NCBI GenBank assembly: GCA_005790545.1
Contig: SXUL01000106.1
Coordinates: 13,975 to 77,974, forward strand
Source: Planctomycetia bacterium
GTDB lineage: Bacteria; Planctomycetota; GCA-002687715
Direction: 5' to 3'
Length of the DNA stretch: 64,000 bases
The notes below the pieces were generated by a model. That model made no database searches and was not told the DNA's origin. It saw only the letters and a program-made list of their open reading frames with translations. Shown one piece after another: positions 47,230-63,110 of the stretch; the stretch's first letter is position 1, and each line of letters begins with the position of its first letter. The translations under genes were made by a program, and so were the position numbers.

Positions 47230-47251
47230 TGCGCGGACCGGTGAGGCCCTC

Positions 47252-47563
47252 ATGAGCAACAAACCCATCCTCAGCGTCAAGTGCCCCTGCTGCCAGCACA
47301 TCCTCGAAGTGAGTGTGGAGCAGGAACGGGTCTTGAGTTGGCGGAAGGGCGTACATCTCACGGAGGACCGCCGCGAAGGCGAGGACTCCATGGATGCGGC
47401 CCTGCGCAACAAGCGCGAGGCGGATGCGCGCGTGGTGGACGAGTTCACCAAGGCTGAGGAGAACGTGCGCTCCGCGAAAGAACGCGTGGACGACCTCTTC
47501 CGCGAAGCGACGCGCAAGGCGAAGGAAAAGGGCGAAGACGCCCCGCGGAAAATCTGGGACTGA
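47252..47563 (+). CDS. hypothetical small protein with N-terminal CPCC zinc-ribbon-like motif and charged coiled-coil tail
   Basis: KCPCCQHILEV followed by a Glu/Arg/Lys-rich helix. Ends 4 nt before rlmN. Confidence 0.35.
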   Translation: MSNKPILSVKCPCCQHILEVSVEQERVLSWRKGVHLTEDRREGEDSMDAALRNKREADARVVDEFTKAEENVRSAKERVDDLFREATRKAKEKGEDAPRKIWD

Positions 47564-47567
47564 GCTC

Positions 47568-48647
47568 ATGGCGCAGGTCCCCCTCGCCGGACTGACGCTG
47601 GATGCAGCGCGCCACCATGGCAGCGCCGCAGGGCTCGATGCCTTCGGGTTGGAACTCGTGCCCCGCGCGTGGCGCCAGATCATGCGCGATGGTGCGGCGG
47701 GGCTGCATTTGCTGCAGGACATCAATCCGCGCAAGCGCGCGGCGCTCGCAGCCGTGTTCTCGCATCAGCTTCCGGAAATCGCTTCCACGCACGCGAGCTG
47801 GGACAAGAGCGTGCGCTATGCGCTGCGGCTCCCGGATGGTGCCATCGTTGAGGCGGTGCTCATCCCGCACCACGGCCTGTGGAGTGTGTGTCTCTCGTCG
47901 CAGGCAGGCTGCGCGCTCGCGTGCCAGTTCTGCGCCACTGGTCGCATGGGCTTGCAGCGCAATCTCCTCGCGCATGAGATCACGGGCCAGGTGCTCGCGA
48001 TCCAGCACCACGCGCGCGTGCGCGTGAGCGACCTCGTCTTCATGGGCATGGGCGAACCGCTCCAGAACGAACACGAAGTACTCGCGGCCTGCGCGGTGTT
48101 CGCCGAAAACGAAGGGATGCAAATCGGGCGCCGCCGCATGGTCATCAGCACGGCCGGCATCGTGCCCGCCATCGACCGCTTTGCCGCTGCGGGCCACAAG
48201 ATGAAGCTCGTCTTCAGTCTCGGCTCCGCGGTTCCTGAAAAGCGTGCGCAGCTCATGCCCATCCAGGAACTCTGGCCTTTCGAACGGCTCCTCGCATCCA
48301 TCCGCAACTATGCCGCGACACTGCGCGGGCGGTATGTGACCCTTGAGTACATCGCCATCCGGAACCTCACCCTCGGCGACGACGACATCGAGGCCATCAA
48401 GAAGCACCTCACGGGTTTCAAGTTCATCCTCAATATCATTCCGCTCAATCCGGTGGACCCTCTGCTGGAGGCGCCCACGCGCGAAGAGGTGCTGGCCTGG
48501 TCGAGCCGATTGCGGCCCCTCGGTTTTCCCGTGAAAATCCGACGCTCCTCCGGGCGTGACCAGTTCAGCGCCTGCGGACAGCTGGGGCGCACGCTGCTCT
48601 CAGCGACGGATCTGGCGGAGGCCCCGCGCATGGGCCGCGCGGTGTAG
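47568..48647 (+). CDS. rlmN: 23S rRNA (adenine2503-C2)-methyltransferase, radical SAM
   Basis: RlmN/Cfr family blocks: CLSSQAGCALACQFCATG (CX3CX2C), MGMGEPLQN, ISTAGIVP. Start at the ATG at 47568 (MAQVPLAG). Confidence 0.9.
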   Translation: MAQVPLAGLTLDAARHHGSAAGLDAFGLELVPRAWRQIMRDGAAGLHLLQDINPRKRAALAAVFSHQLPEIASTHASWDKSVRYALRLPDGAIVEAVLIPHHGLWSVCLSSQAGCALACQFCATGRMGLQRNLLAHEITGQVLAIQHHARVRVSDLVFMGMGEPLQNEHEVLAACAVFAENEGMQIGRRRMVISTAGIVPAIDRFAAAGHKMKLVFSLGSAVPEKRAQLMPIQELWPFERLLASIRNYAATLRGRYVTLEYIAIRNLTLGDDDIEAIKKHLTGFKFILNIIPLNPVDPLLEAPTREEVLAWSSRLRPLGFPVKIRRSSGRDQFSACGQLGRTLLSATDLAEAPRMGRAV

Positions 48648-48659
48648 TCTCTGCAGCGC

Positions 48660-49514
48660 ATGCCGCGCGAATGGCTGCCTCGGCAGCTCCTGCTCTTCGG
48701 TGATCTGCACGCCGAGCGCGAGACACCGCTCCTCGCGGACCTTCTCGGAATTCTCCCGGCGGAGGAAATCCACACTGCCAGTGAGAGCGTCGCCGACGCG
48801 CTGGGGCGCGCTCTCGAACACTGCACGACGCGTCACCGCGTGGTGATCAACTACACGAGCAACAGACGCGTGCTGCTTTCCTCCCGCGAGGCCAGCGATG
48901 GCACCGTGCAATTGCGCGCTCACCACGCCTTCCGCAGCGCACCCGACGAGATTGCGGACGCCGCGCTCCGCCTCTACCTCTTCGCTGCGGATCGCAACGA
49001 GCAGCGCCAGCTCGCACGCACCATCATGCGTTGGCACCGCAGAACCGCCGCGCCCCCGAAGAGCCAGGACAATGAAACGCTCACCCACGGGTTGCATCAC
49101 GATCTCCGCGCCACGCTGGAGCGGGTGAACCGCGAGCATTTCGAATCTGCCCTCACGCTCGACATCACCTTCGGAAACCGCGTGGCGCGCACGGTCATGG
49201 GCCGCCACGAGAAACGCGAGCCACGCTCGCTCATCCTCATCAACCCGGTACTCGACCACCCGTGGATTGCCGCGTGGTACCTCGATTTCCTGGTCTTCCA
49301 CGAATGCCTGCACGAAGTGATCCCGCCGCGTCTCGAAGGCTTGCGCGCGGAATTGCATCCCCATGATTTCCGTGCGCGCGAAGAAGCGCACCCGGATGCA
49401 GCGCGCGCCCGCGAATTCGAAGCGTGGGTGCTCGGCCCCGGCTGGCGCCGCCTCAGCGCCGCAGCGCGCGCGTGGCTTCGCAACAAGAGAAACGGCCCGC
49501 CGGGGAAACCCTGA
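48660..49514 (+). CDS. YgjP-like metal-dependent hydrolase (DUF45, HExxH)
   Basis: C-terminal FHECLHEV...H...E motif arrangement typical of the DUF45/WLM-like zinc hydrolase family. Confidence 0.5.
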   Translation: MPREWLPRQLLLFGDLHAERETPLLADLLGILPAEEIHTASESVADALGRALEHCTTRHRVVINYTSNRRVLLSSREASDGTVQLRAHHAFRSAPDEIADAALRLYLFAADRNEQRQLARTIMRWHRRTAAPPKSQDNETLTHGLHHDLRATLERVNREHFESALTLDITFGNRVARTVMGRHEKREPRSLILINPVLDHPWIAAWYLDFLVFHECLHEVIPPRLEGLRAELHPHDFRAREEAHPDAARAREFEAWVLGPGWRRLSAAARAWLRNKRNGPPGKP

Positions 49515-49804
49515 CGAGCCGCTTCTTCACTACGCCTGCGCTGGGTTCCCCGCCAATCGCAGAAGCAGCGAATGTTTTGTCTGCTGGAGCCCGCGAACGC
49601 GTTGCGGCACGCGCGGACATCCAGTCTCCTTCTTCAACACCACATGTCCCGTTTCTTGTCCTGCCGCGCTGGATTTTTCGGAATCGCTGCAAGAAGGTGG
49701 CGAATACGCACGCAGCGCTGCGATGAACCGGGCTCACTTCCGCCAGAGCGCCGACCGCTCACGGCTTGCCCGAGTGCCTTGTTGCGGCTGTGCGCAGGCC
49801 GCCG

Positions 49805-50182
49805 CTAGCGCCGCCACGACCAGAGGATCTCGTCCCCTGGCTTCACGACCCACTGCGCCGCAGGGACTTGAGGGAACACGCCACCAATGGACCACGCCCA
49901 CGATTGATCTTCCCGGGGGTCATTCTTCGTGGACCTCAGCAGCATCTTCGCGAAGAAGTCTCGGCGGCTCTCCGTGGGGCCGTGGCCACGCGGCCAGCGC
50001 AGGAGCCGCCGCGTCGCGTCCTCGACGGTTGCCCCCCGCGGCACGCTCATCCAGCGCGAACTCTCCGGCCATCCCCCACCGGACTCCGGCCAGAGCACCT
50101 GCACTCGCACGGTGATGGAATCCTCGTGGGCGCAGGATGCGAGGGCACAAGCAAAGAGTGCGGTGAGCAGAGCTGTGCGCAT
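49805..50182 (-). CDS. small lipoprotein (lipobox LASC)
   Basis: MRTALLTALFACALASC has a signal peptide with lipobox. 125 aa. Divergent from the M1 peptidase gene. Confidence 0.4.
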   Translation of the reverse strand: MRTALLTALFACALASCAHEDSITVRVQVLWPESGGGWPESSRWMSVPRGATVEDATRRLLRWPRGHGPTESRRDFFAKMLLRSTKNDPREDQSWAWSIGGVFPQVPAAQWVVKPGDEILWSWRR

Positions 50183-50233
50183 GGCGGGAGTCTAAAGGAG
50201 CGCTGCGCGCGAGCGGATAGTCTCTCGCCCGTC

Positions 50234-52174
50234 ATGAACGCACGCCTCACTCTTCTCGTTGCAGCCCTCGCCTTTCTCGTCTGCGCGCCGCTGGTCGCTC
50301 AACGGCGCGACCAAACCGGCGAAGGCGATGCGAACTGGTCCACGCTCTTCCAGGCCCCGGCCATGCGCACCCCGGATCGCATGCACACGGCGAGTGGACG
50401 GCCCGGCCCGGACTATTGGCAGCAAGTAGCGGACTACAAGATCAAGGCGCGCCTCGATCCGGTGGCCAACAAACTCAGCGCGGAACTCACCCTCACCTAC
50501 ACCAACAACTCCCCCGAAGAGCTGTCCTTCCTCTGGTTCCATCTCGAACAGAACATCTTCAAGCAGGACAGCGCGGCTAGGCAACTTGCACTGTCCGGGG
50601 GTGCCAACGGCGAGCGCATCGAGTCGGAAACCAACGGCGTCGAACTCGCCCATGTGAAATGTCGCGGTGAAGACATCGCCTTCACGGTGTACGACACGCT
50701 CATGCGCGTCGAACTCGCGAAGCCCGTGCGCGCGGATGGCGGCGAGGTCGAGATCGACATTCAGTGGTCCATGAGCCTGCCGGAGAAAGCGGCCCTCCGC
50801 ATGGGCCGCACGGAAACCAGCGACGGCCCCATCTTCGCCCTCGCTCAGTGGTTCCCTGCCGTCGCGAAGTTCGATGATGTCCATGGCTGGAACACCCTGC
50901 CCTATCTAGGTTCCGGCGAGTTCTACACCGACTTCGGTGACTATGAGGTGGAGATCACGGTGCCGGCGAATCACATCGTGGCCTCGACCGGCACACTCAT
51001 GAACCCACGCAGCGTGCTCACGAACGCCCAGCGCGAGGCCCTCGCGAAGGCTCGTGAATCGCGCGAAACCGTGATCGTGCGCTCGGCGGATGAGGTGGCT
51101 CTCGGCAAGGGGCGCCCCGAGAGCGCCGATCCAATCACCTGGGAGTTCAGCGCCCGCAACGTGCGCACCTTCGCCTTCACTTCATCGCCGTCCTTCGTCT
51201 GGGATGCCTCCACCACGAATGCCGGCGTGCTCTGTCAGTCCTTCTATCCGCGCTCAGCCTTGCCGCTCTGGGAGGAAGGCACGAAGGACCTCCGCGAATC
51301 CATCGAGCACTTCTCGCGCATGTGGTTCCCGTACCCATGGCCGGTTGCGAACAACACCAACGCCTTCGGTGAGGGTGGCGGCGGCATGGAATACCCGATG
51401 ATCATCTTCAACGGGCGCTGCGATTCGAGCTACGACTTGTTCGCGCTGGTCGCCCACGAGATCGGGCACAACTGGTTCCCCATGGTGGTGAACACCGATG
51501 AACGCCGCCATGTGTGGATGGACGAGGGCTTCAACACCTTTGTCGATTACTACGCCATCGTGGAGCGCTTCGGTTCTGGCGGCAGCTGGTTCGATCGCAA
51601 GGACTGGGTCTCCGCGTGGTCGCGCAACACCCACCCCATGTCCACGCCACCCGATCGCATGCCCGCAGGAACCGTTGGTTTCCTCGGCTACGACAAACCA
51701 GCCTGGATGATGCGCACGCTCCGCGAAGATGTTCTCGGTGCCGAGCGCTTCGATCGCGCCTTCCGCGACTACATTGCGGCTTGGGCCATGAGGTCGCCCA
51801 CACCGGATGACTTCATGCGCTGCATGGAGAACGGTGCCGGCATGGATCTCGGCTGGTTCTGGCAGAGCTGGATCTTCGGCGCCGCCAAGCCGGATGTGGC
51901 GCTCGTGAGCCTCAGCATCGACGAAGGAACTGTTGATGCCGAGATCTCCCATCGCACGCGCTTCGTGCATCCAGTGCCTTGGCGCGCCGCATTGAAGGAT
52001 GGTTCCCGCCGCGAAGGTGTGATTCCCGTGGAGGCCTTCGCGACTCGGCGCTTGGTCCGCTTCAGTTGCGAGGTGCCCGCGGGTTCCCTCCTGAACTTCA
52101 CCCTCGACCCCGAGGCCCGCTGGCCCGATATGGACCGCAAGAACAACTCACAGGCACCGCACCCTGCGAAGTAA
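50234..52174 (+). CDS. M1-family zinc metallopeptidase (HExxH-X18-E), secreted
   Basis: Signal peptide MNARLTLLVAALAFLVCAPLVAQ. HEIGHNWF...WMDEGF gives HEXXH then E after 18 residues, the gluzincin M1 signature. Confidence 0.75.
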   Translation: MNARLTLLVAALAFLVCAPLVAQRRDQTGEGDANWSTLFQAPAMRTPDRMHTASGRPGPDYWQQVADYKIKARLDPVANKLSAELTLTYTNNSPEELSFLWFHLEQNIFKQDSAARQLALSGGANGERIESETNGVELAHVKCRGEDIAFTVYDTLMRVELAKPVRADGGEVEIDIQWSMSLPEKAALRMGRTETSDGPIFALAQWFPAVAKFDDVHGWNTLPYLGSGEFYTDFGDYEVEITVPANHIVASTGTLMNPRSVLTNAQREALAKARESRETVIVRSADEVALGKGRPESADPITWEFSARNVRTFAFTSSPSFVWDASTTNAGVLCQSFYPRSALPLWEEGTKDLRESIEHFSRMWFPYPWPVANNTNAFGEGGGGMEYPMIIFNGRCDSSYDLFALVAHEIGHNWFPMVVNTDERRHVWMDEGFNTFVDYYAIVERFGSGGSWFDRKDWVSAWSRNTHPMSTPPDRMPAGTVGFLGYDKPAWMMRTLREDVLGAERFDRAFRDYIAAWAMRSPTPDDFMRCMENGAGMDLGWFWQSWIFGAAKPDVALVSLSIDEGTVDAEISHRTRFVHPVPWRAALKDGSRREGVIPVEAFATRRLVRFSCEVPAGSLLNFTLDPEARWPDMDRKNNSQAPHPAK

Positions 52175-52258: not shown

Positions 52259-53962
52259 TCACCAGACGATCACCGTGCGTGCGGGCGTGAGGGCGAGGTT
52301 CAGGCCACCAAGAGTCGGCGCCAGTGGGTCCAGGACCGCAGCCTGCGCATGAAAGGTGGCCCCTTGGAATACCGGATTATTGGGGATCGGCAACGGCCAG
52401 ACAACATTGCCGAATATGTCGGTCCCGCCCGATAGATACACGACAGGTGCCGCAAGATCCAAATACACTCCGCACGCGTTCAACGGGCTCGTGCTCAACC
52501 CTGTGGCGATGGCCAGCACAGCAAGAGCGTTGCCGGGAGCACCGAAAACGGCGGCGTTGAAGTTCAGATTGCCGACCTGCGCGTTGGAGGGCCACAGGCC
52601 CGGAGGTGTCGGGCTGCTCCCTGAGCAACCGACTCCATTCAGCGCCTGATTTCTGAAGTAATAGCCGGGACAGTAATACGGCACGCACATCAGGTCCGGG
52701 TCGCTGTCACCGTCGAAGTCGCCGATGACACTCGTCGGGCAAGCCGCAGGGAATGGGCAAGGTGTATGCGATGTGTTCATGCCCGTTTGGTGAAACTGCC
52801 CTCCGGGAAGCCCGAGAGCCATGGTTACGGCAAAATTGCACACGGACGTCGTAAAGAACGGCTCGCGGGCCGGCGCGCGGAGCAAGTCACCCCAACCGTC
52901 GCGATTGAAGTCCGCGGCAAAGGTGGCCACAAAGAGCACGCCTGCAGGCGGCGTCGTGAAAGTCCCTGCAGGAGTCAAAGAGCGCGTGGTGCTGCCGAGA
53001 TGCACCTGCAGAAGCTCGGTGGCGGCACCACCGACGGTCGCGGGTACGCTGCTGACCAGATCCGTGATGCCATCTCCGTTCATGTCGGCGGCACCCACAA
53101 GGCCTGCGGCCATAAATCCCGGGAACACGGGGAATCCCGTAATCGAAGAACCGCTCGGCGCAGTGAATTGCCCGCCACCATTGCCCCAGAGGACGTTCGT
53201 AATCCAGGACGCTCCCACTGAAAAATCCGAGTGCTGGATGGCAAGATCTGTATTGCCGTCACCATCGAAATCTCCCACACGCGGGGCACCACCTATCCCA
53301 TTCACACTCACTCCGCCCCACGCCCACACTTGCACTTGCCATGCCAAGTTCCAGTTCGGGAACTGATTGAGGTAGCAGGATAGAGTTGGCGCATTACCCC
53401 CGCTGCTGGAGTACGCAAGCACATCCGGAAGGCCATCGTTATTGACATCGGCCATGGCAAACCATTGCATGATGACCGCGAGCGTACTCATGCTGATACT
53501 GACTGTGCTCGCTGGAACAAGTGTGCCATTTCCGTTGCCGATACTGAATAATATCATGGACATCGGGTTGCTGGATATGCCAGTACCGTACAAACCATAG
53601 GCCAGATCCTGCAATCCGTCGCCGTTGACATCGGCTGCAATGACGCGTAATGTACCCGCCCCGACCCCCGGCGGATAATAATAGGCATGCGGTATGTACG
53701 GGCCAACGCCGCTGACCGCAGGATCGAGGTCGACTTGGAATAATACCGATCCTGCAACCACATGAATCAAGTCCGCGTAACCGTTTTGGTTGAGATCGGC
53801 CGCCACTGGGAAGTCGCCCGGCCCCGCTCCGGGTGGTGCCATAGGCACATTGAACGCTTCGGTGAGGTATTGCCCCGGCAGGACGCTCACTACCGCCAGC
53901 AACATGAGGGCAACCAACAAGCAGTTCCAAGTGGCCGCGTGCGCGTGTTTGAGGTGGCTCAT
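52259..53962 (-). CDS. FG-GAP repeat (integrin-alpha-like beta-propeller) secreted protein
   Basis: Signal peptide after the MSHLKH start (GAGGAG SD). At least six Dx[DN]xDGxxD calcium-loop repeats (DFDGDGNTDL, DMNGDGITDL, DVNGDGLQDL, ...). Lower GC than flanks. Confidence 0.75.
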   Translation of the reverse strand: MSHLKHAHAATWNCLLVALMLLAVVSVLPGQYLTEAFNVPMAPPGAGPGDFPVAADLNQNGYADLIHVVAGSVLFQVDLDPAVSGVGPYIPHAYYYPPGVGAGTLRVIAADVNGDGLQDLAYGLYGTGISSNPMSMILFSIGNGNGTLVPASTVSISMSTLAVIMQWFAMADVNNDGLPDVLAYSSSGGNAPTLSCYLNQFPNWNLAWQVQVWAWGGVSVNGIGGAPRVGDFDGDGNTDLAIQHSDFSVGASWITNVLWGNGGGQFTAPSGSSITGFPVFPGFMAAGLVGAADMNGDGITDLVSSVPATVGGAATELLQVHLGSTTRSLTPAGTFTTPPAGVLFVATFAADFNRDGWGDLLRAPAREPFFTTSVCNFAVTMALGLPGGQFHQTGMNTSHTPCPFPAACPTSVIGDFDGDSDPDLMCVPYYCPGYYFRNQALNGVGCSGSSPTPPGLWPSNAQVGNLNFNAAVFGAPGNALAVLAIATGLSTSPLNACGVYLDLAAPVVYLSGGTDIFGNVVWPLPIPNNPVFQGATFHAQAAVLDPLAPTLGGLNLALTPARTVIVW

Positions 53963-53972
53963 GTCATGCTCC

Positions 53973-56384
53973 TCAGTACCGGACCTGATTTTCGCCAACG
54001 ACACTCTTGATCGCAGGATTGGCAGGATCAGGGACTTCCAGGGCGAGCACTGTTACGGTTGCCGGCAGCGGCATGGTGGCAGGGATTGCCACGCTGTAGA
54101 CACTCACATTCATGGTGCCTCCTCCGGGGCCAGGGGCAGCTGTCGAAGAGACGAAACTCGTACGAATCTGGGTGCCATTCCATGTGCAAGTCAGCGCTTG
54201 CAGCGGAAATGGGTTGCTGCTTCCCGGGATCCCGGTACCAGCCGCTGCCCGATTGTGACTGACCGTGATCGTCAGGCTGCCGCCCAGCGGAACGGAATTC
54301 CGTGGCGACACCGCAACAAGTGGGCGGCTCACTGGCACAAACTGCGGCCCACTCACACTCAAATTGATCGCATCGGTCAGGCGTATGATGGTGCCGGGTG
54401 CCATGCGCATGCTGCTCACAGGCAACACCGGCGGAGTTGCCAGATTGGTATTCCAGAATCCGGCATATGTGACTTGGGTCGTGAAGGGTAATGGCGGCTG
54501 GTTGAGTACATTGAGTGTGAACTCGTACCACCATTCACCAAACGCGGCAGTCGGAATACCGGTTGTGATTCCGAACCCCAATCGGCCAAGGGGCTCTATG
54601 CACAGTGCGAAGTTCGCGGGACTGGACGCAGGAACCCCATCTATGCGGAACTCTCCCGTCGAGACTGCACCGGCACTCGTGTCGACAACACCTGTCACGC
54701 TTTGCGGCCCGGATCGATGTGTCCCACTGACGGTGCCAACCAACGGAACGCCTGGCACAGGAGGAGTCAACGACACAAGGCTGTCATCCCAAATGACAAA
54801 TACATTGTAACCGAATGAGTTCAGCGGGTGTGCCACGGCACCGACAATGCTGGCTGTTTCGTTGATCAAGAAGTTCCTTGAGCCTGTCATGGCACTGACA
54901 GGGTACAGAGTGGCGAACGCCGCAATGTCGTCGGGTAGCCACGGACTCAGAACGCGATTACGTGCCGGGATTGCAGGCGTGAGCTGGACAGCCGGAGTTG
55001 ACAATGTGGTCGTGAACGCCGCTGTCATGGCCGGCACTTCATTGAAGCTTGGATACCACCCCATGGATAATAAAATGAAAGGCGCAGCTGTCGGGTTCAG
55101 AACCGGGCCACCTGGGTGCAAATTGGTGTGGTCGAGTCCCCAGAAGTGACCAATCTCGTGTGCAAGCCCGCTGCTGGTTTGGGTCACGAGTCCGTTCCAT
55201 GTGGTGGGGCCAGCTGCTGCCTCAAAAATGGTGTCGCACTCCGAGATGATCCCGGTTTGGGGATCCACCATCATGCTGCTCAGCCCACCCACTGCTCCTC
55301 CCAGCATCCCTCCTGCTGTGGGCAAGAAAATGAACTCATTCAAGCCATTGCCCGTTGGTCCACCACAAGCCAGTGACCAAATGAATTGCCCACTAGCGGC
55401 GACAACACCTCCCGCCGGAGCAATGTACGTTGGGGTGGGGTCTTGCGTTGAATACGGATTCGGAGGATAGCCGATGCACACTGTGCTTGGGACATTGGCC
55501 AATTGCAGGATGCTGACGCCGCTCATGATCGCAACGATGTCGTTTGTGAACATTGCCCACGTGTAGGGTGCCCCCAATGCGCCAACAAAAATGTCCGTCC
55601 CAGCTGCAACGCCCGGTGGCGTATTGACGATGTAGGGGACCTGCACGCCTGCGGGCCAATGCCGTGTTACGAGCGAGTATGTTCCGGTTGGGTCAGGATT
55701 GTTGGGGTTCGGTGTACCATCCGCTGCATATGGACTTTGCGCGTACGGCGCCGCGGCGCTGCAGGGAAGGCCTCCCGCACCGGGTGCTCCGCTAGCACTG
55801 GGCGCTGCCATCACATACCAGAGCACATAGGGGTCGTCGCCGTCGCTCGCGGCGCCTGCGCAAAGTTGTTTTTCCGAGTGGCCGCCGCAAGGCTCTACGA
55901 TGTGAGCGAGGCCGGATGGAAGCATGGTGACCGACGCGCCTCGAGAAGTGCGCAGGTGCCTGCCTGCATGAGCCTCAAGGCAACGCAATGCGTGCGAGTT
56001 CGGATCCATGGTGGTCCTGCAGGGAGTGAGAGCGCGAGTACCCGGCGGAAGAAGGATGCGAGCAGCCTCTGGAGACACCGGGGCATCATGGCACACTGGC
56101 GCTGCTGCGTATTCTCCAAAGAACCACCCGTACGACATGATTGTGGCCGCCAGAGCGAGCAGCGTCAGCGCATGCGCGCTGCCGCTATCCGTGAGTCCGT
56201 GAGTCCGTGAGTCCGTGAGTCCATACTTGCCTCCGCTTGCTCTTTGGTGCTTGGTACCGATTTGTATCCTCGCGACGACGTTTGCGCGCGGTGCTGATTT
56301 GCTACAGCAAGGGATGTGCCACAGCGGAATGGCCAGCGCATCGGCTCCGGGGCTGCATTGACGATTCGGCGCAAGCCGCTGCAC
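53973..56384 (-). CDS. matrixin-like (metzincin HExxHxxGxxH) zinc metalloprotease with large N- and C-terminal extensions. Translation start ambiguous; 5' region contains an 8-bp tandem repeat that frameshifts the best start codon.
   Basis: HEIGHFWGLDHT plus downstream DDIAAFATLYP (matrixin C-terminal signature). The ORF frame is open up to 56384. The only SD-preceded ATG (56224) is out of frame by the repeat count. 10-bp gap to the FG-GAP gene. Confidence 0.7.
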   Translation of the reverse strand: MQRLAPNRQCSPGADALAIPLWHIPCCSKSAPRANVVARIQIGTKHQRASGGKYGLTDSRTHGLTDSGSAHALTLLALAATIMSYGWFFGEYAAAPVCHDAPVSPEAARILLPPGTRALTPCRTTMDPNSHALRCLEAHAGRHLRTSRGASVTMLPSGLAHIVEPCGGHSEKQLCAGAASDGDDPYVLWYVMAAPSASGAPGAGGLPCSAAAPYAQSPYAADGTPNPNNPDPTGTYSLVTRHWPAGVQVPYIVNTPPGVAAGTDIFVGALGAPYTWAMFTNDIVAIMSGVSILQLANVPSTVCIGYPPNPYSTQDPTPTYIAPAGGVVAASGQFIWSLACGGPTGNGLNEFIFLPTAGGMLGGAVGGLSSMMVDPQTGIISECDTIFEAAAGPTTWNGLVTQTSSGLAHEIGHFWGLDHTNLHPGGPVLNPTAAPFILLSMGWYPSFNEVPAMTAAFTTTLSTPAVQLTPAIPARNRVLSPWLPDDIAAFATLYPVSAMTGSRNFLINETASIVGAVAHPLNSFGYNVFVIWDDSLVSLTPPVPGVPLVGTVSGTHRSGPQSVTGVVDTSAGAVSTGEFRIDGVPASSPANFALCIEPLGRLGFGITTGIPTAAFGEWWYEFTLNVLNQPPLPFTTQVTYAGFWNTNLATPPVLPVSSMRMAPGTIIRLTDAINLSVSGPQFVPVSRPLVAVSPRNSVPLGGSLTITVSHNRAAAGTGIPGSSNPFPLQALTCTWNGTQIRTSFVSSTAAPGPGGGTMNVSVYSVAIPATMPLPATVTVLALEVPDPANPAIKSVVGENQVRY
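56191..56222. repeat. tandem octanucleotide repeat (gtgagtcc)x4 (GGACTCAC on the coding strand)
   Basis: Read directly: atcc gtgagtcc gtgagtcc gtgagtcc gtgagtcc atac. Confidence 0.9.
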
Positions 56385-56650
56385 GCCAAGGACTAGTGGC
56401 CGTGTTCGTCAACACGCACCGCGCATCGGCCACCGCGCGAGCCGCTTGCAGCTTTGTTTCCGCATCGCACACTGTGTTCCCCTGCCGACACATGGCCTGC
56501 ATAGCGCAACACACACTGCGTCGCCCATTGGCCCGGCTTCGGTCCGCAGAACAGAGGCACCTTGGAGGCATCTTTCGGCGTGCTTTGGCTCTTTGGCGCC
56601 AAGACAGTGCGCCAACGCCAGCGGCTCTGGAGCAGCCGTAATAATCTGGA

Positions 56651-56723
56651 TGGGCGCTGAGGGATTCGAACCCCCGACCCCCTCGGTGTAAGCGAGGTGC
56701 TCTAGCCGCTGAGCCAAGCGCCC
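56651..56723 (-). tRNA. tRNA-Val (anticodon TAC)
   Basis: Minus-strand GGGCGCTTGGCTCAGCGGCTAGAGCACCTCGCTTACACCGAGGGGGTCGGGGGTTCGAATCCCTCAGCGCCCA folds as a cloverleaf. Anticodon loop is CTTACAC. Confidence 0.85.
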
Positions 56724-56878
56724 GGCTGCGAGGAGGATAGCGCGCGGAACGGACCGACGTCTGTCGCGCGCCCGAGGGCATGACCTCGAATCAAGGCTCC
56801 CTCGCCGGGCGCAATCACGCAGAGCAAGGGCGAAGTTCCCCGAGAGATCGCGGCGCGACGGATCTGAAGGATGCGTCA

Positions 56879-56898
56879 CCGCCTACGCGCGTAGGCGG
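56879..56898. promoter_or_regulatory. perfect 20-bp palindrome ccgcctacgcgcgtaggcgg flanked by tcacc direct repeats, in the nar upstream region
   Basis: Read directly. Lies ~160 bp upstream of the narC-like start and 5' of tRNA-Val. Confidence 0.25.
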
Positions 56899-57057
56899 CT
56901 CACCAGAAGCTCACCACATTCAGGCCTGAACCGCGAGGCACACCGGACGCCACAACTTCTTGGCCGGATTGAGCTTCAAACAACAGCTGCAACATGATGC
57001 CTGTTGCGCACGATCAAGCGGCACGCCAGTTGATGAGTGCGGAGTGGAAACCCGCAC

Positions 57058-57951
57058 ATGACGGACTTCAACACGCACCCGCTCCACGCGCTCTTCATGA
57101 CCGCGGCTCTGAGAGTTGCCACCACGCTCGGCGTGGTGCTCGCCCTCGGCGGCTTCATCGCCGCTCAAGACCCGCCCTCGGAAGAGACCATGAACTACTT
57201 CAAGGCCAACTGCGCGAGTTGCCACACCATTGGTGGCGGCCGTCTCACTGGTCCTGACCTGAAGGGCGCCGACACTCGCAAGGACCGCGACTGGCTCATC
57301 AGCTTCGTCGCCGATCCGAAGACGATGATCGACTCCGGCGACGCCTACGCCCGCAAACTGGTGGAAGAAGCCCGCGGCGCGCTCATGCCCAATGTCCCCG
57401 GCATGAACAAGACCCTCGCGGCCAAGCTCGTCGATCTCATCAAGGCCGAGTCAGTGCTGGAGAAGTCGCATTTCATGGGTGTGGTGCTTTCGGACCGCCC
57501 ACTCACGGCCGTGGACGTAGCCCAGGGCAAGGCCCTCTTCACCGGCCTCGCACCCTTCAAGGCCGGCGCCCCTGCGTGCAACTCGTGCCACACAGTGCGC
57601 GCTCTCGAGGGCTTCGGCGGCGGCCGCCTCGGACCAGATCTGACCAGCGCCTTCGCGCGTCTCGAAGGCCGCAAGGCCCTCGGTGCATGGCTTTCGGCAC
57701 CGCCCTCCATCGTGATGCAGCCGGTGTTCAAGCAGCACACTCTGGAGAGCGACGAGATTCTCTCGTTGGTGGCGTTCTTGAAGAGCGAAGCGGAAGGCGG
57801 CGATGCGCCCATGGTGGCGGAACCCTCCCTCGACTTCGTGCTGGCAGGGCTCGGCGCGGCAGCGCTGCTCATTGTCTTGATGGACTTCGCCTGGCGTCGC
57901 CGCTACCGCGCCGTGCGCAGGCCCCTCGTTGCGAAGGACTCGAACTCATGA
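57058..57951 (+). CDS. membrane-anchored diheme c-type cytochrome, NarC-like, first gene of the nitrate reductase operon
   Basis: Signal/TM then two CxxCH (CASCH, CNSCH) and a C-terminal TM helix ([18 protein letters not shown]). Stop overlaps the narG ATG (ATGA). Confidence 0.75.
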
Positions 57952-60900
57952 CGAACGGCAACAATCCCTGGATCCAGGACGGCGTCGAGCCCGAGACCCG
58001 CGCTTGGGAAGAGTTCTACAGAAACCGCTGGCAACACGACAAAGTCGTGCGCTCGACCCACGGTGTGAACTGCACCGGCTCGTGCTCGTGGAACGTGCAC
58101 GTGAAGGACGGCATCGTCACATGGGAAATGCAGGCGCTCGACTATCCGGAGTTGTCGAAGGACCTCCCGGGTTACGAACCTCGCGGTTGCCAGCGCGGCA
58201 TCTCATACTCCTGGTACCTCTACAGCCCGCTGCGCGTGAAGTACCCGTACATGCGCGGCGCATTGCTCGACCTTTGGCGCGAAGCGAAGCGCCAGCACGC
58301 CGACCCGGTGGATGCCTGGACGGCCCTGCAAGGCGACCCCGCGAAGCGTGCGCGCTACCAGAAGGCGCGTGGCAAGGGCGGGCTGCGCCGCGTCACGTGG
58401 GATGTGGCCCTTGAGCTGATCACAGCTTCGATGGTGCACACCATCAAGAAGCACGGGCCCGATCGCATCACGGGCTTCTCCCCCATTCCCGCCATGTCGA
58501 TGCTCTCGTACGCAGCGGGTTCGCGCATGTTGCAGCTCCTCGGAGGAGTGAATCTCTCCTTCTACGACTGGTATTGCGATCTGCCGAGCGCGAGCCCCGA
58601 GTGCTGGGGCGAACAGACGGACGTGAACGAATCCGCGGACTGGTTCAACGCCAAGTTCCTCGCGGTCATGGGTGCGAACCTCAACATGACGCGCACGCCG
58701 GACGTGCACTTCGCCGCGGAAGCGCGCCACAACGGTTCGAAGATGGTGGTGTTCGCACCCGACTTCAACCAGGTCGCGAAGTACGCGGATGAGTGGATCA
58801 GCATCAACGCCGGCCAAGACGGCGCGTGGTGGATGGCGGTCAATCACGTCATCCTGAAGGAGTTCCACCACGAACAGAAGATCAAGAGCTTCCTCGACTA
58901 CACCAAGACCTTCTCCGACGCGCCCTTCCTCGTGGAAGTGGTAAAGGAAGGCACGGGCCTCCGACCGGGCCGACTGCTCCGCGCGGACCGCCTCGCCAAG
59001 TACAAGGGCGAAGAGAACGGCGAGTGGAAGTTCCTCTTCTGGGATACCGCCACCAACGCGCCGAAGATGCCCATGGGCAGCATGGGCCACCGCTGGCAGG
59101 CGAAGAAGGGCCAGTGGAATCTGAAGCTCGAAGACGGCATGGATGGTTCGCCCATCGACCCGACCTTGAGCTTCCTAGACGCTGCGGATGAAACGCCGCT
59201 GGTCGGCTTCGACGACTTCGCCAACGGCACCACCACCACACGCGGCGTGCCCGCGAAGAAGCTCACGACGGTGGATGGATCGAGCGTGCTCGTCACCACG
59301 GTCTATGACCTGCTGATGGCGCAGTACGGCGTGCCGCGCGGGCTGCCGGGTGCGTACCCGAAGAGCTACGACGACGACAGTGTGTATACACCGGCATGGT
59401 CCGAGAAGTACACCGGCATCGGCCGCGAGAACCTCATCCGCTTCGCGCGCGAATGGGCCAGCACCGCTGAAAAGACCGGTGGCAAGTGCACCGTCATCAT
59501 CGGCGCCGGCATCAACCACTGGTACCACGCGAACCTCATGTATCGCGCGGCCATCCACGCGCTCATGTTCTGTGGCTGCGTGGGCAAGAACGGTGGCGGC
59601 CTCGCCCACTACGTAGGCCAGGAAAAACTCGCACCCGGCGATTCGTGGGGTGCCATCGCGCTCGCGAAGGACTGGTACCCGCCGTCGCGTCTGCAGAACG
59701 GTCCGAGCTGGCACTACGTGCACTCGGATCAGTGGCGTTACGAGCGCAGCTTCCGCGACTACCACACCGTGCCCGTCGGCACGCCGGATTCGAGCTTCGC
59801 TGCCGGCCACACCATGGACGCCAACGTGAAGGCCGTCCGCAACGGCTGGCTGCCCTTCTTCCCCGCCTTCGATGAAAGCCCGCTCGACACGGTGAAGAAG
59901 GCCGAGCAGGCGGGCGCCAAGGATGAAGCAGCGATCGTCAAGAACGTGGTGCAGCGCATCAAGTCCGGCGACCTCAAGTTCGGCATCGAGAGGCCGGATG
60001 CAAGCGAGGTCTGGCCGCGGCTGTGGTTCATCTGGCGCGGCAACGCGCTGATGAGTTCCGCCAAGGGCCACGAGTACTTCCTCGAGCACTACCTCGGCAC
60101 GCACACCAACAAGATCTCGAAGGAGCTCGCTGCCGACTTCGTGAAGGAAGTCGAATGGATGGCGACGGCACCGCGCGGAAAGATGGATCTGATCGTCGAT
60201 CTCAACTTCCGCATGGACACGTCCGCGCTCTACTCGGACATCGTGCTGCCCGCGGCCACCTGGTACGAGAAGTGCGACCTCAACTCGACGGACATGCACT
60301 CCTTCATCCACCCGCTCGCACCTGCGGTGCAGCCGTGCTGGGAATCGCGTTCGGACTGGGACATCTTCCGCACCATCTCGAAGGAGTTCTCGAAGCTCGC
60401 GGAGAAGCATCTCCCCGGACGCACGAAGGATCTCGTGCCAACCGTGCTCGCGCACGACAGCAACGCAGAGATCGCGCAACCGCGCATGAAGGATTGGAAG
60501 AAGGGCGAGGTGGAGGCCATTCCCGGCAAGACCATGCCCGGCTTCAAGGTCGTCGAGCGCGACTACCCCGCGCTGCACGACATGTTCTGCTCGCTCGGGC
60601 GCAAGGTGCGCGAGAACGGCCTCGGTGCCCACGGCACGCACTACATGGTCGATGATTTCTACGACCAAATGCTGGCCACCTCGCCCGTCGAGCGCTGGAA
60701 CGGCGCGAGCTACCCCTCCTTGAAGGATGCGAAGGACGCGGCGAATGCCGTGCTCAACCTCGCCACGGTCACGAACGGTGAACTGGCGTGGCGCTCCTAC
60801 AAGAACATGGAAGAGAAGACGGGCCTGAAGCTCACCGACCTCGCGGAACCCACCCGCGCAGTGCGCATGAACTTCAAGGATCTGCAAGCACAGCCTCGCC

Positions 60901-61586
60901 GCTTGATCAACTCGCCCATGTGGTCGGGACTGCTCGAAGGCGGCCGCGCTTACTCGCCCTTCACCTACAACGTCGAACGCATGGTGCCCTGGCGCACGCT
61001 CACGGGCCGCCAGCACTTCTACCTCGATCACGACGGCTACATCGCGTTTGGCGAGCACCTCCCGACCTACAAGCCGAAGCCGCGTCCCGATCAGTACGCA
61101 GACCTCGTGGTCTCGGAGGCTGAAGGCCCGACGCTGCAGCTCAACTACCTCACGCCGCACGGCAAGTGGCACATCCACTCGACCTACGGCGACAACCAGC
61201 GCATGACCACGCTCTCGCGCGGCTGCGAACCGTTCTGGATGAATGACAAGGACGCCGACTCGATCGGCATCAACGACAACGACTGGGTCGAGGTGCACAA
61301 CGACCACGGAGTCGTCGTAACTCGCGCCGCGGTGTCTGCGCGCATCCCGCGCGGCATCTGCATCATCTATCACTCACCCGAGCGCACGTATGGCGTGCCG
61401 AAGTCTCCGCTGCGCGGCAACAAGCGCGGTGGCGGCCACAACAGCCTCACGCGCACGCGCCTGAAACCGAACCTCATGGTCGGTGGCTACGGCCAGTTCA
61501 CCTTCCACTTCAACTACTGGGGACCCATCGGGTGCAACCGGGACACCCATGTACTCGTCCGCAAGCTCCCGCATCTCAGCTGGTGA
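57948..61586 (+). CDS. narG: respiratory nitrate reductase alpha subunit
   Basis: N-terminal H/C-x3-C-x3-C-...-C FS0 motif ([15 protein letters not shown]), ~1212 aa, extensive NarG blocks. Start set at the ATG at 57948 rather than the spurious upstream extension. Confidence 0.92.
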
Positions 61587-61622
61587 TGCACGGCGCACGA
61601 CAGGGAGCCTGAAAGGAACACC

Positions 61623-63110
61623 ATGGACGTCAGATCTCAAATCGCAACGCTCTTCCATCTCGACAAGTGCATCGGCTGCCACACCTGCAGCATCGCGTGC
61701 AAGAACATCTGGACCGACCGTCCAGGCACCGAGTACATGTGGTGGAACAACGTCGAGACCAAGCCCGGCACGGGCTATCCGACGCAGTGGGAAGACCAGG
61801 ACGCCTACAAGGGCGGCTGGAAAGTCGAGAACGGCGATCTCGAACTGCGTTCGACTTCGAAAGCGAAGCTCGTCCCGAACATCTTCCACAACCCGGCCAT
61901 GCCCAGCATGGACGACTACTACGAGCCGTGGACCTACAAGTACGACGAGCTGTTCAACGCTCCCGAAGGTGACGATCAGCCGACGGCCATCCCCGTCTCG
62001 ATGATCACGGGCCAGCAGATCAACATCGAGGCCGGCCCCAACTTCGACGACGACCTCGGTGGCTCCAAGGTCTACGCCGCGAACGACGTGAATCTGCGGG
62101 AGCTCGATCCGATGCTCCGCGCGCAGATGCTCGAAATCGAGCGCCTCGCGTTCTTCTACCTGCCGCGCATCTGCAACCACTGTCTCAATCCAGGTTGCGT
62201 CGCGGCCTGTCCCTCCGGCGCGCTCTACAAGCGCGGCGAGGACGGCATCGTGCTCTTGAACCAGGAGCGTTGCCGTGCGTGGCGCGCGTGCATCGCCGCC
62301 TGCCCCTACAAGAAGACCTACTACAACTGGTCCACGGGCAAGTCGGAGAAGTGCATCCTCTGCTTCCCGCGCCTCGAAACGGGCCAAGCACCCGCGTGCT
62401 TCCACTCCTGCGTCGGCCGCATCCGCTATCTCGGCAACGTGCTCTATGACGCGGACCGCATCAAGGATGCCGCGCTCAAGACCGACCTCGAACTCGTGGA
62501 TGCGCAGCGCGATCTCATCCTCGACCCGAACGATCCGGCAGTGATCGCGGGTGCGCGCGCCTCGGGCGTGCCTGAAGCCGTCATCGAATCGGCACAGAAG
62601 TCGCCGGTCTGGCGCTTCGTGAAGGAATGGAAGATGGCGCTTCCGCTCCACGTTGAGTTCCGCACCTTCCCGATGCTCTTCTATGTGCCCCCGTTGCTGC
62701 CGGTGATGTCGGTCGCACGCGGTGGCGTGGTGACCAGCGACGTGGATGCCATGTTCGCGGATATCGAGAAGGCGCGAGCGCCGATCTCGTATCTCGGCAA
62801 GCTCTTCGCCGCCGGGAATGACGGCAAGGTGCGCTACGCACTGCGGAAGCAGATGGCGGTGCGCCTGTGGCGTCGCCACGTCACGGTCGGCGACATCTCG
62901 CTCGAAGAAGCGACGCGCGCATTGCGCGAAGCGGAATGCACGCCCGAACAGGCGGACGCCATCTTCAAGCTCACAGCCCTCGCTTCCATCGACGAGCGCG
63001 TGGTCGTCCCGCCCATGCAACGCGAAATGGCCATCGAGATGCTCGAAGACCCGCACGAGCACCGCGCGGGCACCGGGTTCGGCACACGCACGCCGCCCAT
63101 GCGAGTCTGA
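61623..63110 (+). CDS. narH: respiratory nitrate reductase beta subunit
   Basis: Four FeS-cluster Cys groups (CIGCHTCSIACKN, CNHCLNPGCVAAC, CRAWRACIAAC, CILCFPR...C). 495 aa. Confidence 0.92.
   Translation: MDVRSQIATLFHLDKCIGCHTCSIACKNIWTDRPGTEYMWWNNVETKPGTGYPTQWEDQDAYKGGWKVENGDLELRSTSKAKLVPNIFHNPAMPSMDDYYEPWTYKYDELFNAPEGDDQPTAIPVSMITGQQINIEAGPNFDDDLGGSKVYAANDVNLRELDPMLRAQMLEIERLAFFYLPRICNHCLNPGCVAACPSGALYKRGEDGIVLLNQERCRAWRACIAACPYKKTYYNWSTGKSEKCILCFPRLETGQAPACFHSCVGRIRYLGNVLYDADRIKDAALKTDLELVDAQRDLILDPNDPAVIAGARASGVPEAVIESAQKSPVWRFVKEWKMALPLHVEFRTFPMLFYVPPLLPVMSVARGGVVTSDVDAMFADIEKARAPISYLGKLFAAGNDGKVRYALRKQMAVRLWRRHVTVGDISLEEATRALREAECTPEQADAIFKLTALASIDERVVVPPMQREMAIEMLEDPHEHRAGTGFGTRTPPMRV

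What the first reader, a model, noticed from the sequence alone, without database searches (positions are those of the whole stretch)
53973..56384. Octanucleotide tandem repeat puts the best start codon of a matrixin-like protease out of frame: candidate slipped-strand phase-variation switch
On the coding (minus) strand the sequence reads CGGAGGCAAGT ATG GGACTCAC x4 GGATAGCGGC... The ATG at 56224 has a near-ideal SD (GGAGG, 5-nt spacer). With four 8-bp units it reads MDSRTHGLTDSRIAAARMR-stop, while the metzincin ORF (HEIGHFWGLDH, DDIAAFATLYP) continues in the -1 frame. With 3 or 6 units (copy number divisible by 3) the ATG would read straight into MDSRTHGLTDSGSAHALTLLALAATIMSYGW..., which looks like a signal peptide fused to the protease. 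An 8-bp unit cannot vary without frameshifting, which is the classic architecture of contingency loci. The alternatives are an assembly miscount of the repeat or use of the far-upstream in-frame start at 56384.
Basis: seen in the sequence. Interest (0 to 1): 0.7.

Follow-up and report, generated by a model that had tools for sequence, protein, structure and literature searches.

The report
Octamer-repeat on/off switch on a protease gene
A perfect 8-base tandem repeat sits just after the start codon of a secreted zinc-protease gene, related bacteria carry one repeat unit more or fewer and so have the gene in or out of frame, and this makes it a classic slipped-strand "contingency" switch found here in uncultured environmental bacteria, not in a pathogen.

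Summary
On the minus strand, GGAGG-N5-ATG (56234-56222) is followed by (GACTCACG)x4 (56221-56190). The ATG frame stops after 19 codons, and the 738-codon protease body (56189-53973) lies in another frame. Three or six units would restore the frame.

Six of seven distinct relatives at 43-72% identity whose 5' end was read carry an octamer repeat at the same place, between an SD-led start and the hydrophobic leader. There are three unit types and 3-5 copies. Two relatives are ON, and the complete OFF alleles are one unit from ON, except one two-unit case.

Two pairs of otherwise identical contigs (4.9 kb and 7.1 kb, 0 mismatches) differ only by one 8-nt unit. Gene bodies are under purifying selection (dN/dS 0.12-0.26, dS>1), including an OFF-OFF pair. 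These are therefore not pseudogenes.

The protein is a remote matrixin-like metzincin (hhalign 99%). It is always paired with an FG-GAP protein.

Copy-number variation was not seen in the window's own lineage, and switching inside a clone is untested. The mechanism is well known (Neisseria opa is the closest analogue), so this is a new member of a known kind.

The parts
56230..56234 (-). Shine-Dalgarno GGAGG, 5 nt upstream of the ATG
   Evidence: Sequence. An SD-like purine block sits at the same distance in the orthologues: GGAGGCAAG-ATG in L004, GGAGGCAAAA-ATG in L005, AAGGAGACGAGA-ATG in L002, AAGGAAATTACA-ATG in L006 and GGAGATCAAC-GTG in L007.
56222..56224 (-). Functional start codon (ATG) of the protease. 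It is out of frame with the gene body in this allele.
   Evidence: The same ATG plus repeat is the in-frame start of P0006/P0018 in L002/L003.
56190..56221 (-). (GACTCACG)x4 octanucleotide tract, the slipped-strand switch. Four units is OFF; 3 or 6 units is ON.
   Evidence: TRF score 70 with 100% matches; copy-number simulation; one-unit polymorphisms in paralogous lineages.
56165..56224 (-). Abortive 19-codon reading frame made in the 4-unit (OFF) state (MDSRTHGLTDSRIAAARMR-stop)
53973..56189 (-). Protease gene body: 738 codons plus stop, in the frame reached with 3n units
   Evidence: ORF list; 100% match to P0001 and 43-72% to P0002-P0009; dN/dS 0.12-0.26.
56118..56177 (-). Hydrophobic leader (AHALTLLALAATIMSYGWFF). 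It is a signal peptide or signal anchor and is translated only in the ON register.
   Evidence: Kyte-Doolittle 15-residue maxima of 1.7-2.5 directly after the repeat in all ON products. The segment is conserved as protein in OFF and ON relatives (alignment).
56007..56009 (-). Internal ATG used by the public annotation (P0001, 678 aa, no leader)
   Evidence: L001 gene start 3001 maps to window 56009 (mapping).
55128..55160 (-). Zinc-binding motif HEIGHFWGLDH (HExxHxxGxxH)
   Evidence: invariant in alignment A1; aligned to the M10-like motif by hhalign.
54900..54932 (-). DDIAAFATLYP motif, the equivalent of the matrixin C-terminal helix motif DDxxGxxxxY
52259..53962 (-). Partner gene: secreted FG-GAP/VCBS repeat protein. 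It starts 10 nt after the protease stop, with GGAG overlapping the stop, so it is likely co-transcribed and translationally coupled.
   Evidence: Pfam FG-GAP_3 at 9.9e-28. The same gene follows the protease in every close relative.
56651..56723 (-). tRNA-Val(TAC), about 430 nt upstream of the switch. It is context only and is not shown to be part of the system.
   Evidence: ARAGORN.

Best explanation
This is a translational phase-variation (contingency) switch. A perfect octanucleotide tract lies between the SD-led ATG and the hydrophobic leader of a secreted or membrane-anchored matrixin-like zinc protease. Slipped-strand mispairing during replication adds or removes whole 8-nt units. Because 8 is not a multiple of 3, each step moves the 738-codon gene body in or out of frame with the only good start. 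With 3n units the cell makes the full pre-protein, whose repeat-encoded residues (DSRTHGLT) simply lengthen the leader's n-region. With 4 units, as in this window, ribosomes stop after 19 codons, so the allele sequenced here is OFF. The downstream FG-GAP gene is probably affected by polarity or loss of coupling, but that is inferred. Shown: the architecture, ON and OFF alleles across relatives, one-unit polymorphism between otherwise identical contigs in two paralogous lineages, purifying selection on OFF alleles, and nucleotide-level maintenance of the tract. Inferred: the slippage mechanism itself, reversibility within a clone, export of the product, and the selective agent (for example phage or predator recognition, or the cost of a public-good enzyme).
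For: (1) Architecture.
(2) Conservation of position with turnover of the unit. GACTCACG is found in the window, L002/L003 and L006. GACTCAAG is found in L004/L033, L005/L034, L024 and L037/L050. TCGAACCC is found in L007. All are period 8 and all lie between the start and the leader.
(3) Register. L002/L003/P0018 (n=3) and L007 (n=3) are ON. The window (4), L006 (3), L004 (4), L033 (5), L005 (3) and L034 (4) are OFF. The window, L006, L004, L005 and L034 are one unit from an ON state; L033 (n=5) is one unit from n=6. The L037 copy (n=3, OFF by hand count from a GTG start) runs into the contig end.
(4) Polymorphism. L004 against L033 (4861 and 4869 bp) shows 0 mismatches and one 8-nt gap in the tract. 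L005 against L034 shows 7118 bp aligned, 0 mismatches and one 8-nt gap.
(5) Not pseudogenes. dN/dS of the gene body is 0.12-0.26 with dS of 0.7 to more than 3, including the OFF-OFF pair window-L006 at 0.15.
(6) The ATG plus three units (27 nt) is identical in the window, L002 and L006, although CDS nucleotide identity is 57-70% and the longest other identical run is 17-23 nt.
(7) All units changed together between the close pair L002 (GACTCACG) and L005 (GACTCAAG), which points to homogenisation by repeated slippage.
(8) A Logan contig starts inside the tract (L024) and another contig ends in it (L050), as expected for a variable or long repeat.
(9) The tract meets the published length criterion for candidate phase-variable SSRs, at least 3 units for tetra- to octanucleotide repeats (PMC7383803).
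Against: No copy-number variation was seen for the window's own lineage. The window and ENA contig k141_60076 are 100% identical over 8 kb, both with 4 units. P0001, the truncated call, is the only protein form of this lineage on record, across 7 contigs. Exact look-ups of the predicted ON proteins (window n=3 and n=6, L006 n=2, L004 n=3, L005 n=2) found nothing. Tracts are short (3-5 units), so switching may be slower than at classic loci. The 4-versus-5 difference in L004/L033 could lie between tandem copies within one genome, not between cells, because that contig closes on itself. No reads, expression data or phenotype were available. Export is inferred from hydropathy only.
Confidence: 0.85

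Rival explanations
1. Assembly or sequencing miscount: the real tract has 3 (or 6) units, the gene is simply in frame, and the differences between assemblies are artefacts.
For: All data are short-read metagenome assemblies. Two contigs break at the tract (L024, L050). No reads could be inspected.
Against: The 32-nt tract is far shorter than a read and shorter than the final k (141) of the k141 contigs. The window and an independent ENA contig agree on 4 units over 8 kb at 100% identity. The same 4861-bp contig with 4 units was recovered in 7 samples. The differences are whole 8-nt units in otherwise mismatch-free contigs. OFF registers occur in five different loci with different units.
Confidence: 0.03
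2. Fixed frameshift: the gene is a pseudogene, or a leaderless remnant expressed from an internal ATG (as annotated, P0001), and the repeat is incidental.
For: Public annotation starts at an internal Met (56009). No ON allele of this lineage is on record.
Against: The 738-codon body has no other lesion. dN/dS is 0.12-0.26 with saturated dS, including between two OFF alleles. The leader between the repeat and the internal Met is conserved as protein (alignment). Several other loci are OFF at the same site and nowhere else, which independent decay would not produce. ON orthologues use exactly this ATG.
Confidence: 0.05
3. The repeat number does not gate expression. Translation reaches the body anyway, either from an upstream in-frame start (GTG 56384) or by programmed ribosomal frameshifting or re-initiation on the repeat.
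For: In the window, and in L004, L033 and L034, the body's frame stays open upstream to some start codon, so gene callers made extended proteins (P0009, P0019, P0020).
Against: GTG 56384 has no SD and would put about 70 unconserved residues before the hydrophobic segment. Upstream DNA is poorly conserved. For OFF alleles L005 and L006, gene callers found no upstream start and began at internal Met codons. The shift needed differs between alleles (n=4 against n=5 in one lineage), and the unit contains no slippery heptamer (sequence). ON orthologues need no recoding.
Confidence: 0.07

Closest known systems
Neisseria opa genes (CTCTT pentamer repeats in the leader-peptide coding region; PMC3960869)
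   Same: A tandem repeat whose unit is not a multiple of 3 lies inside the 5' coding region for the leader peptide, and unit gain or loss shifts the whole mature protein in or out of frame. Several paralogous copies occur per genome, each with its own tract: GCA_005799575.1 carries two.
   Different: The unit is 8 nt instead of 5, and tracts are short (3-5 units against about 7-28, the latter from my own knowledge). The product is a zinc protease with a co-transcribed FG-GAP partner, not an outer-membrane adhesin. The hosts are uncultured environmental bacteria. Switching rate and phenotype are unknown.
Haemophilus influenzae tetranucleotide contingency loci (lic1, lgtC and others), and the octanucleotide GCATCATC tracts upstream of hmwA in biogroup aegyptius (PMC3309571)
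   Same: These are simple-sequence contingency loci, and copy number differs between strains. The hmw case shows that 8-nt units are already recorded at phase-variable loci.
   Different: The hmw octamers lie in the promoter and tune transcription with 12-15 copies. Here the tract lies inside the reading frame and acts by frameshift with 3-5 copies.
Phase-variable secreted or surface enzymes, e.g. the Gardnerella NanH3 sialidase poly-C tract (bioRxiv 10.1101/2020.09.16.300947) and the Neisseria NalP protease poly-C tract (own knowledge)
   Same: An exported hydrolase is switched ON and OFF by slipped-strand frameshifting.
   Different: Those use homopolymer tracts in host-associated bacteria. 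Here the tract is an octamer conserved in position across relatives whose synonymous sites are saturated.
Peptidase family M10 (matrixins; bacterial members such as karilysin)
   Same: The HExxHxxGxxH zinc site is present, a DDxAxxxxLYP helix motif follows a conserved PAM (candidate Met-turn), and the profile-profile match to M10-positive bacterial proteins is 99% probable at E 4.7e-18 over 132 columns.
   Different: There is no Pfam M10 hit above threshold (11.8 bits against a cut-off of 24). The catalytic domain has large insertions. About 300 C-terminal residues form beta-sandwich domains. There is an obligatory FG-GAP neighbour.

Membership tests
Simple-sequence-repeat contingency locus (translational phase variation by slipped-strand mispairing) | Perfect tandem repeat, with a unit length not divisible by 3, inside the reading frame or at its 5' end | tested here: met
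   (GACTCACG)x4 at 56221-56190, directly after the ATG.
Simple-sequence-repeat contingency locus (translational phase variation by slipped-strand mispairing) | Tract long enough by published screening criteria | tested here: met
   Four units, against a criterion of at least 3 units for tetra- to octanucleotide repeats (PMC7383803).
Simple-sequence-repeat contingency locus (translational phase variation by slipped-strand mispairing) | Copy number differs between otherwise near-identical genomes | tested here: inconclusive
   Met in two paralogous lineages: L004 against L033 (4 and 5 units) and L005 against L034 (3 and 4 units), with 0 mismatches elsewhere. Not seen in the window's own lineage, where two assemblies both have 4 units, nor in the L006 lineage, which has 3 units in L006, L067 and L130.
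Simple-sequence-repeat contingency locus (translational phase variation by slipped-strand mispairing) | Both ON and OFF registers exist, with an otherwise intact and selectively constrained gene | tested here: met
   Two loci are ON and several are OFF. dN/dS is 0.12-0.26.
Simple-sequence-repeat contingency locus (translational phase variation by slipped-strand mispairing) | High-frequency, reversible switching within a clonal population, with a change in phenotype | not testable with these tools
   This needs reads, cultures or reporter constructs.
Metzincin / peptidase family M10 (matrixin) | Extended zinc-binding motif HExxHxxGxxH | tested here: met
   HEIGHFWGLDH, invariant in 12 relatives.
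Metzincin / peptidase family M10 (matrixin) | Conserved Met-turn downstream of the third zinc ligand | tested here: inconclusive
   A near-invariant P326-A327-M328 (P0001 numbering) lies 34 residues after the motif. It aligns near the Met of the M10-like set, but no confident structure was obtained.
Metzincin / peptidase family M10 (matrixin) | Significant match to the curated family model (Pfam PF00413) | tested here: not met
   11.8 bits against a cut-off of 24. The link is only indirect, through intermediates that do pass (P0111 at 49.9 bits, P0127 at 44.6 bits) and hhalign at 99%.
Metzincin / peptidase family M10 (matrixin) | Metzincin fold (five-stranded sheet, three helices) | tested here: inconclusive
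   The AF2 model has mean pLDDT 50.6. The order of secondary-structure elements is compatible, but Foldseek matched only Ig-like sandwiches in the C-terminal half.

The most novel reading that the evidence does not exclude
The octamer switch is an old, selectively maintained part of a two-gene metzincin-plus-FG-GAP cassette that multiplies within genomes. The cassette appears as tandem arrays or circular forms: two lineages assemble as closed 4.4-4.7-kb cycles, and others are bracketed by 69-110-nt direct repeats. Each copy would be switched independently, giving free-living, probably Planctomycetota-like bacteria an opa-style combinatorial repertoire of surface proteases. On this reading, GACTCA(C/A)G tracts would be a recurrent hypermutable motif in many environmental genomes.
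Probability: 0.2. Interest if true: 0.7.

Novelty: new member of a known kind. Interest (0 to 1): 0.5.

Why it matters
Contingency loci are documented almost entirely in host-adapted pathogens. Here metagenomic assemblies alone give unusually complete comparative evidence for one in uncultured environmental bacteria: ON and OFF alleles, one-unit polymorphisms, turnover of the unit with the period held at 8, and purifying selection on OFF alleles. This suggests that stochastic bet-hedging over an exported protease and its FG-GAP partner pays off outside infection, for example against phages or grazers or to limit the cost of a shared enzyme. There is also a practical point. Public annotations of this family are systematically wrong at the 5' end, giving either truncated, leaderless proteins or spurious N-terminal extensions, because gene callers do not model the switch.

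Tried and rejected
- **Pfam and NCBIfam on the protease.** Nothing reached threshold.
- **PDB sequence profile search.** It found only karilysin, at E 0.2, on the HExxH motif.
- **AlphaFold2 with the 12-sequence alignment.** Mean pLDDT was 50.6. A Foldseek search of the PDB returned only antibody-like sandwiches at TM about 0.1, which is not usable for the catalytic domain.
- **Exact look-up of five predicted ON proteins.** None is in the collection.
- **att-like or other direct repeats around the window's cassette.** None was found.
- **Promoter scan of 55900-57100.** It found nothing.
- **Literature search for the run and assembly accessions.** It found no papers, so habitat and taxonomy remain unknown. 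A Planctomycetota-like affiliation is only suggested by a DUF1501 neighbour, distant relatives in Planctomycetota MAGs and a DUF1080-cytochrome c fusion in the window.
- **Programmed frameshifting.** Considered and rejected, because there is no slippery site, different alleles would need different shifts, and ON orthologues need none.
- **Methylation motif in the unit.** The unit contains GACTC, a GANTC-type site, but the TCGAACCC unit of L007 lacks it, so the idea was dropped.
- **The 116 metagenomic GACTCAMG tracts as one system.** Rejected. Only 6 belong to this protease family and the rest are heterogeneous. No control octamer could be scanned.
Full report
**Observation**

On the minus strand the window reads GCGGAGGCAAGT-ATG-(GACTCACG)x4-GATAGCGGCAGCGCGCATGCGCTGA. 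GGAGG lies at 56234-56230, the ATG at 56224-56222, and the four perfect units at 56221-56190. TRF scores the tract 70 (period 8, 4.4 copies, 100% matches), the best of 29 tandem-repeat rows in the 64-kb window.

The ATG frame ends after 19 codons (MDSRTHGLTDSRIAAARMR, 56224-56165). The 738-codon protease body (56189-53973) is in another frame. Upstream of the repeat, that frame has no start codon until a GTG at 56384, which has no SD before it. Simulated copy numbers of 0, 3, 6 or 9 join the ATG to the body.

**Relatives**

The protein has only 16 relatives in the word-indexed search. The 100%-identical public protein (P0001, 678 aa) is annotated from an internal Met at 56009 and so lacks any leader.

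The orthologue P0006 (46% identity) begins MDSRTHGLTGSGRAYALAVVGLAAAIMLCGW. Its DNA reads AAGGAGACGAGA-ATG-(GACTCACG)x3-GGTAGCGGT, which is the same ATG and the same octamer, but with three units and in frame.

I then read the DNA of the other relatives. Registers for the loci with complete 5' ends are.

| Locus (protein) | Start context and tract | Units | Register |
|---|---|---|---|
| Window, L001 (P0001) | ATG-(GACTCACG) | 4 | OFF; ON at 3 or 6 |
| L002/L003 (P0006, P0018) | ATG-(GACTCACG) | 3 | ON |
| L006 (P0003, 66% identity) | ATG-(GACTCACG), then GCAGCGCGC | 3 | OFF; ON at 2 or 5 |
| L007 (P0002, 72% identity) | GTG-N21-(TCGAACCC) | 3 | ON |
| L004 (P0009) | GGAGGCAAG-ATG-CTT-(CAAGGACT) | 4 | OFF; ON at 3 or 6 |
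| L033 (P0020) | same locus as L004 | 5 | OFF |
| L005 (P0008) | GGAGGCAAAA-ATG-CTT-(CAAGGACT), then CAAGG | 3 | OFF; ON at 2 or 5 |
| L034 (P0019) | same locus as L005 | 4 | OFF |
| L037/L050 (80% nucleotide identity to L024) | GTG-CTGTCAG-(GACTCAAG) | 3 | OFF by hand count from the GTG; that gene copy runs into the contig end |
| L024 (P0005) | contig starts inside (ACTCAAGG)x3.75 | unknown | unknown |
| L023 (P0004) | no repeat | none | leader follows the start directly |

The distant clade (P0010-P0012, about 35% identity) also has no repeat.

So a period-8 tract sits at the same position, between an SD-led start and the hydrophobic leader, in eight of nine distinct loci of the close clade. 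There are three unit types. Two loci are ON. Every other locus with a complete 5' end is OFF.

**Direct evidence that the tract changes**

Cluster mates of the relatives differ at the N-terminus. Their DNA shows the following.

- L004 (ENA, 4861 bp) and L033 (NCBI SXGR01409087.1, 4869 bp) have 0 mismatches and a single 8-nt gap inside the tract.
- L005 (ENA, in a 180-kb contig) and L034 (NCBI SYGL01000002.1, 82 kb) have 0 mismatches over 7118 bp and a single 8-nt gap inside the tract.

In about 12 kb of otherwise identical sequence, the only two differences are whole repeat units. The tract therefore mutates much faster than the surrounding DNA.

**The OFF alleles are not dead genes**

- Nei-Gojobori dN/dS of the body is 0.12-0.26, with dS from 0.7 to above 3. 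The OFF-OFF pair window-L006 gives 0.15.
- The leader segment between the repeat and the internal Met is conserved as protein (GSAHALTL(L/F)AL...(Y/C)GW), with dN/dS of 0.3-0.7.

**The tract is maintained at the nucleotide level**

- The ATG plus three units (27 nt) is identical in the window, L002 and L006. Their CDS nucleotide identity is only 57-70%, and the longest other identical run is 17-23 nt.
- Between the close pair L002 and L005 (dN 0.12), every unit has changed from GACTCACG to GACTCAAG. The TCGAACCC unit of L007 matches CGGACTCA at 5 of 8 positions in register.
- A substitution that spreads to all units is what repeated expansion and contraction produces.

**Mechanism**

The best explanation is slipped-strand phase variation acting at translation. 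With 3n units the cell makes a pre-protein with a short polar n-region (encoded partly by the repeat) and a 15-20-residue hydrophobic segment. The Kyte-Doolittle 15-mer maxima are 1.7-2.5 in all ON products, against 1.2 for the annotated internal start. With other copy numbers the ribosome terminates within 7-27 codons in the window's version of the tract.

The allele in this window (4 units) is OFF, one deletion step from ON. The FG-GAP gene starts 10 nt after the protease stop, and its SD overlaps that stop. It follows the protease in every close relative. It is likely co-expressed and may be affected by the switch, but this is inference.

**Rivals**

- **Miscounting by the assembler.** This is unlikely. 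The tract is 32 nt, two assemblies agree, one allele recurs in 7 samples, and the differences are whole units.
- **A fixed pseudogene.** This is contradicted by the selection data and by several loci being OFF at this one site only.
- **Upstream starts or ribosomal frameshifting.** These do not fit. GTG 56384 has no SD, upstream DNA is poorly conserved, and gene callers found no upstream start for L005 and L006. Alleles of one lineage would need different shifts.

**What the protein is**

- Pfam, NCBIfam and PDB sequence searches give only sub-threshold hits on the HExxH motif.
- An AF2 model was poor (pLDDT 50.6). It showed only beta-sandwich domains in the C-terminal 300 residues.
- An exhaustive profile search found 280 relatives. 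The weak ones, which cover the catalytic core, include proteins that pass the Pfam Peptidase_M10 threshold (P0111 at 49.9 bits, P0127 at 44.6 bits).
- A profile-profile comparison with that set gives 99% probability and E 4.7e-18 over 132 columns. It aligns the edge-strand region, HExxHxxGxxH and DDxAGxxxxYPV.
- 'Matrixin-like metzincin' is therefore justified as remote homology, but the protein is not a member by the curated model.
- The conserved cysteines would fit an extracytoplasmic location (inference).

**Comparison with what is known**

The closest analogue is Neisseria opa, which has CTCTT repeats in the leader-peptide coding region and several independently switching paralogues (PMC3960869). 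Octanucleotide units are already accepted in SSR screens (PMC7383803) and occur upstream of hmwA in H. influenzae biogroup aegyptius (PMC3309571). Exported enzymes under slipped-strand control are also known (NanH3).

What is new is the setting. These are uncultured environmental bacteria, probably Planctomycetota-like on weak evidence. The gene family is a metzincin plus FG-GAP cassette. The tract has persisted across relatives whose synonymous sites are saturated, with unit turnover at constant period. I therefore class this as a new member of a known kind.

**Limits**

- No variation was seen in the window's own lineage, and predicted ON proteins are absent from the collection.
- The 4-versus-5 difference in L004/L033 might lie between tandem copies in one genome, because that contig closes on itself. 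The L005/L034 pair is free of this caveat.
- Reversibility, switching rate, export and phenotype are untested.

**Side observations**

- In two lineages the cassette assembles as a closed cycle. L004/L033 have a 141-nt terminal overlap and a 4720-bp period. L037/L050 give a cycle of about 4435 bp.
- In L006 and L034 the cassette is bracketed by 69-nt (88% identity) and 100-nt (95% identity) direct repeats. L034 also has an IS3-type transposase and a perfect 110-nt duplication of the 3' end of a DUF1501 gene.
- In the window the cassette is single-copy. Its GC is 4-6 points below the flanks, and it lies next to tRNA-Val.
- A metagenome scan for (GACTCAMG)x3 found 116 tracts, of which only 6 belong to this family. 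Several unrelated loci with identical flanks differ in copy number.

Noticed in passing
L004 1-141 = 4721-4861; L033 likewise; L037 (reverse complement) 1-4042 = L050 364-4405 and 4073-4148 = L050 1-76: In two paralogous lineages the protease-plus-FG-GAP unit assembles as a closed cycle, 4720 bp in one and about 4435 bp in the other. The first includes a 127-aa 3' fragment of an H+-PPase gene. The unit is therefore either tandemly amplified or circular. This could also mean that some copy-number differences lie between copies within one genome.
   Followed up: partly
L006 2184-2252 and 6363-6431; L034 2241-2340 and 6683-6782, plus 907-1016 and 6826-6935: The cassette is bracketed by direct repeats of 69 nt (88% identity) and 100 nt (95% identity). 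In L034/L005 there is also an IS3-type transposase (HTH_Tnp_1 + rve) upstream, and a perfect 110-nt duplication of the 3' end of a DUF1501 gene flanks the whole insert. This suggests duplication or mobility of the cassette.
   Followed up: partly
window 53000-56000, compared with flanks 44000-52000 and 57000-64000: The cassette has GC of 0.58-0.60 against 0.63-0.68 in the flanks. It lies directly downstream of tRNA-Val(TAC) at 56651-56723, and only 85 nt separate the FG-GAP stop from a convergent Peptidase_M1 gene. No att-like repeat was found.
   Followed up: partly
L041/L046, L053/L140, L072/L076 (metagenome contigs): GACTCACG tracts in unrelated contigs with near-identical flanks (one SNP in L041/L046) differ in copy number: 5 against at least 12, 4 against 8, and 12 against 9. 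In L053/L140 the tract ends 8 nt before the ATG of a small ORF (unidentified). Overall, 116 metagenomic stretches carry at least 3 GACTCA(C/A)G units, in contigs with GC from 0.32 to 0.72. No control octamer could be scanned, so over-representation is unknown.
   Followed up: partly
window 56009 (P0001 start); L004 301, L033 216, L034 2501 (gene-caller starts): Public gene calls for this family are wrong at the 5' end because of the switch. OFF alleles are annotated either from internal Met codons (P0001, P0003, P0017, P0008; leaderless) or with spurious upstream extensions that translate the repeat in another frame (P0009, P0019, P0020).
   Followed up: yes
L024 1-30; L050 4375-4405: Contigs begin or end inside the octamer tract. 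This is consistent with a tract longer than the assembler's k (Logan) or with length heterogeneity in the sample.
   Followed up: no
GCA_005799575.1: SYGL01000003.1 (L006) and SYGL01000002.1 (L034): One MAG carries two paralogous cassettes with different units, GACTCACG x3 and CAAGGACT x4. Both are OFF in that assembly. Sample ERZ27257032 holds the window's type, the L004 type, and a repeat-free distant paralogue (L029).
   Followed up: partly
window 52259-53962 (-): The FG-GAP partner protein matches the NCBIfam domain model XAC2610_fam (51 bits, cut-off 35) in addition to Pfam FG-GAP_3. It has its own N-terminal hydrophobic leader (MSHLKHAHAATWNCLLVALMLLAVVSVLPG).
   Followed up: no
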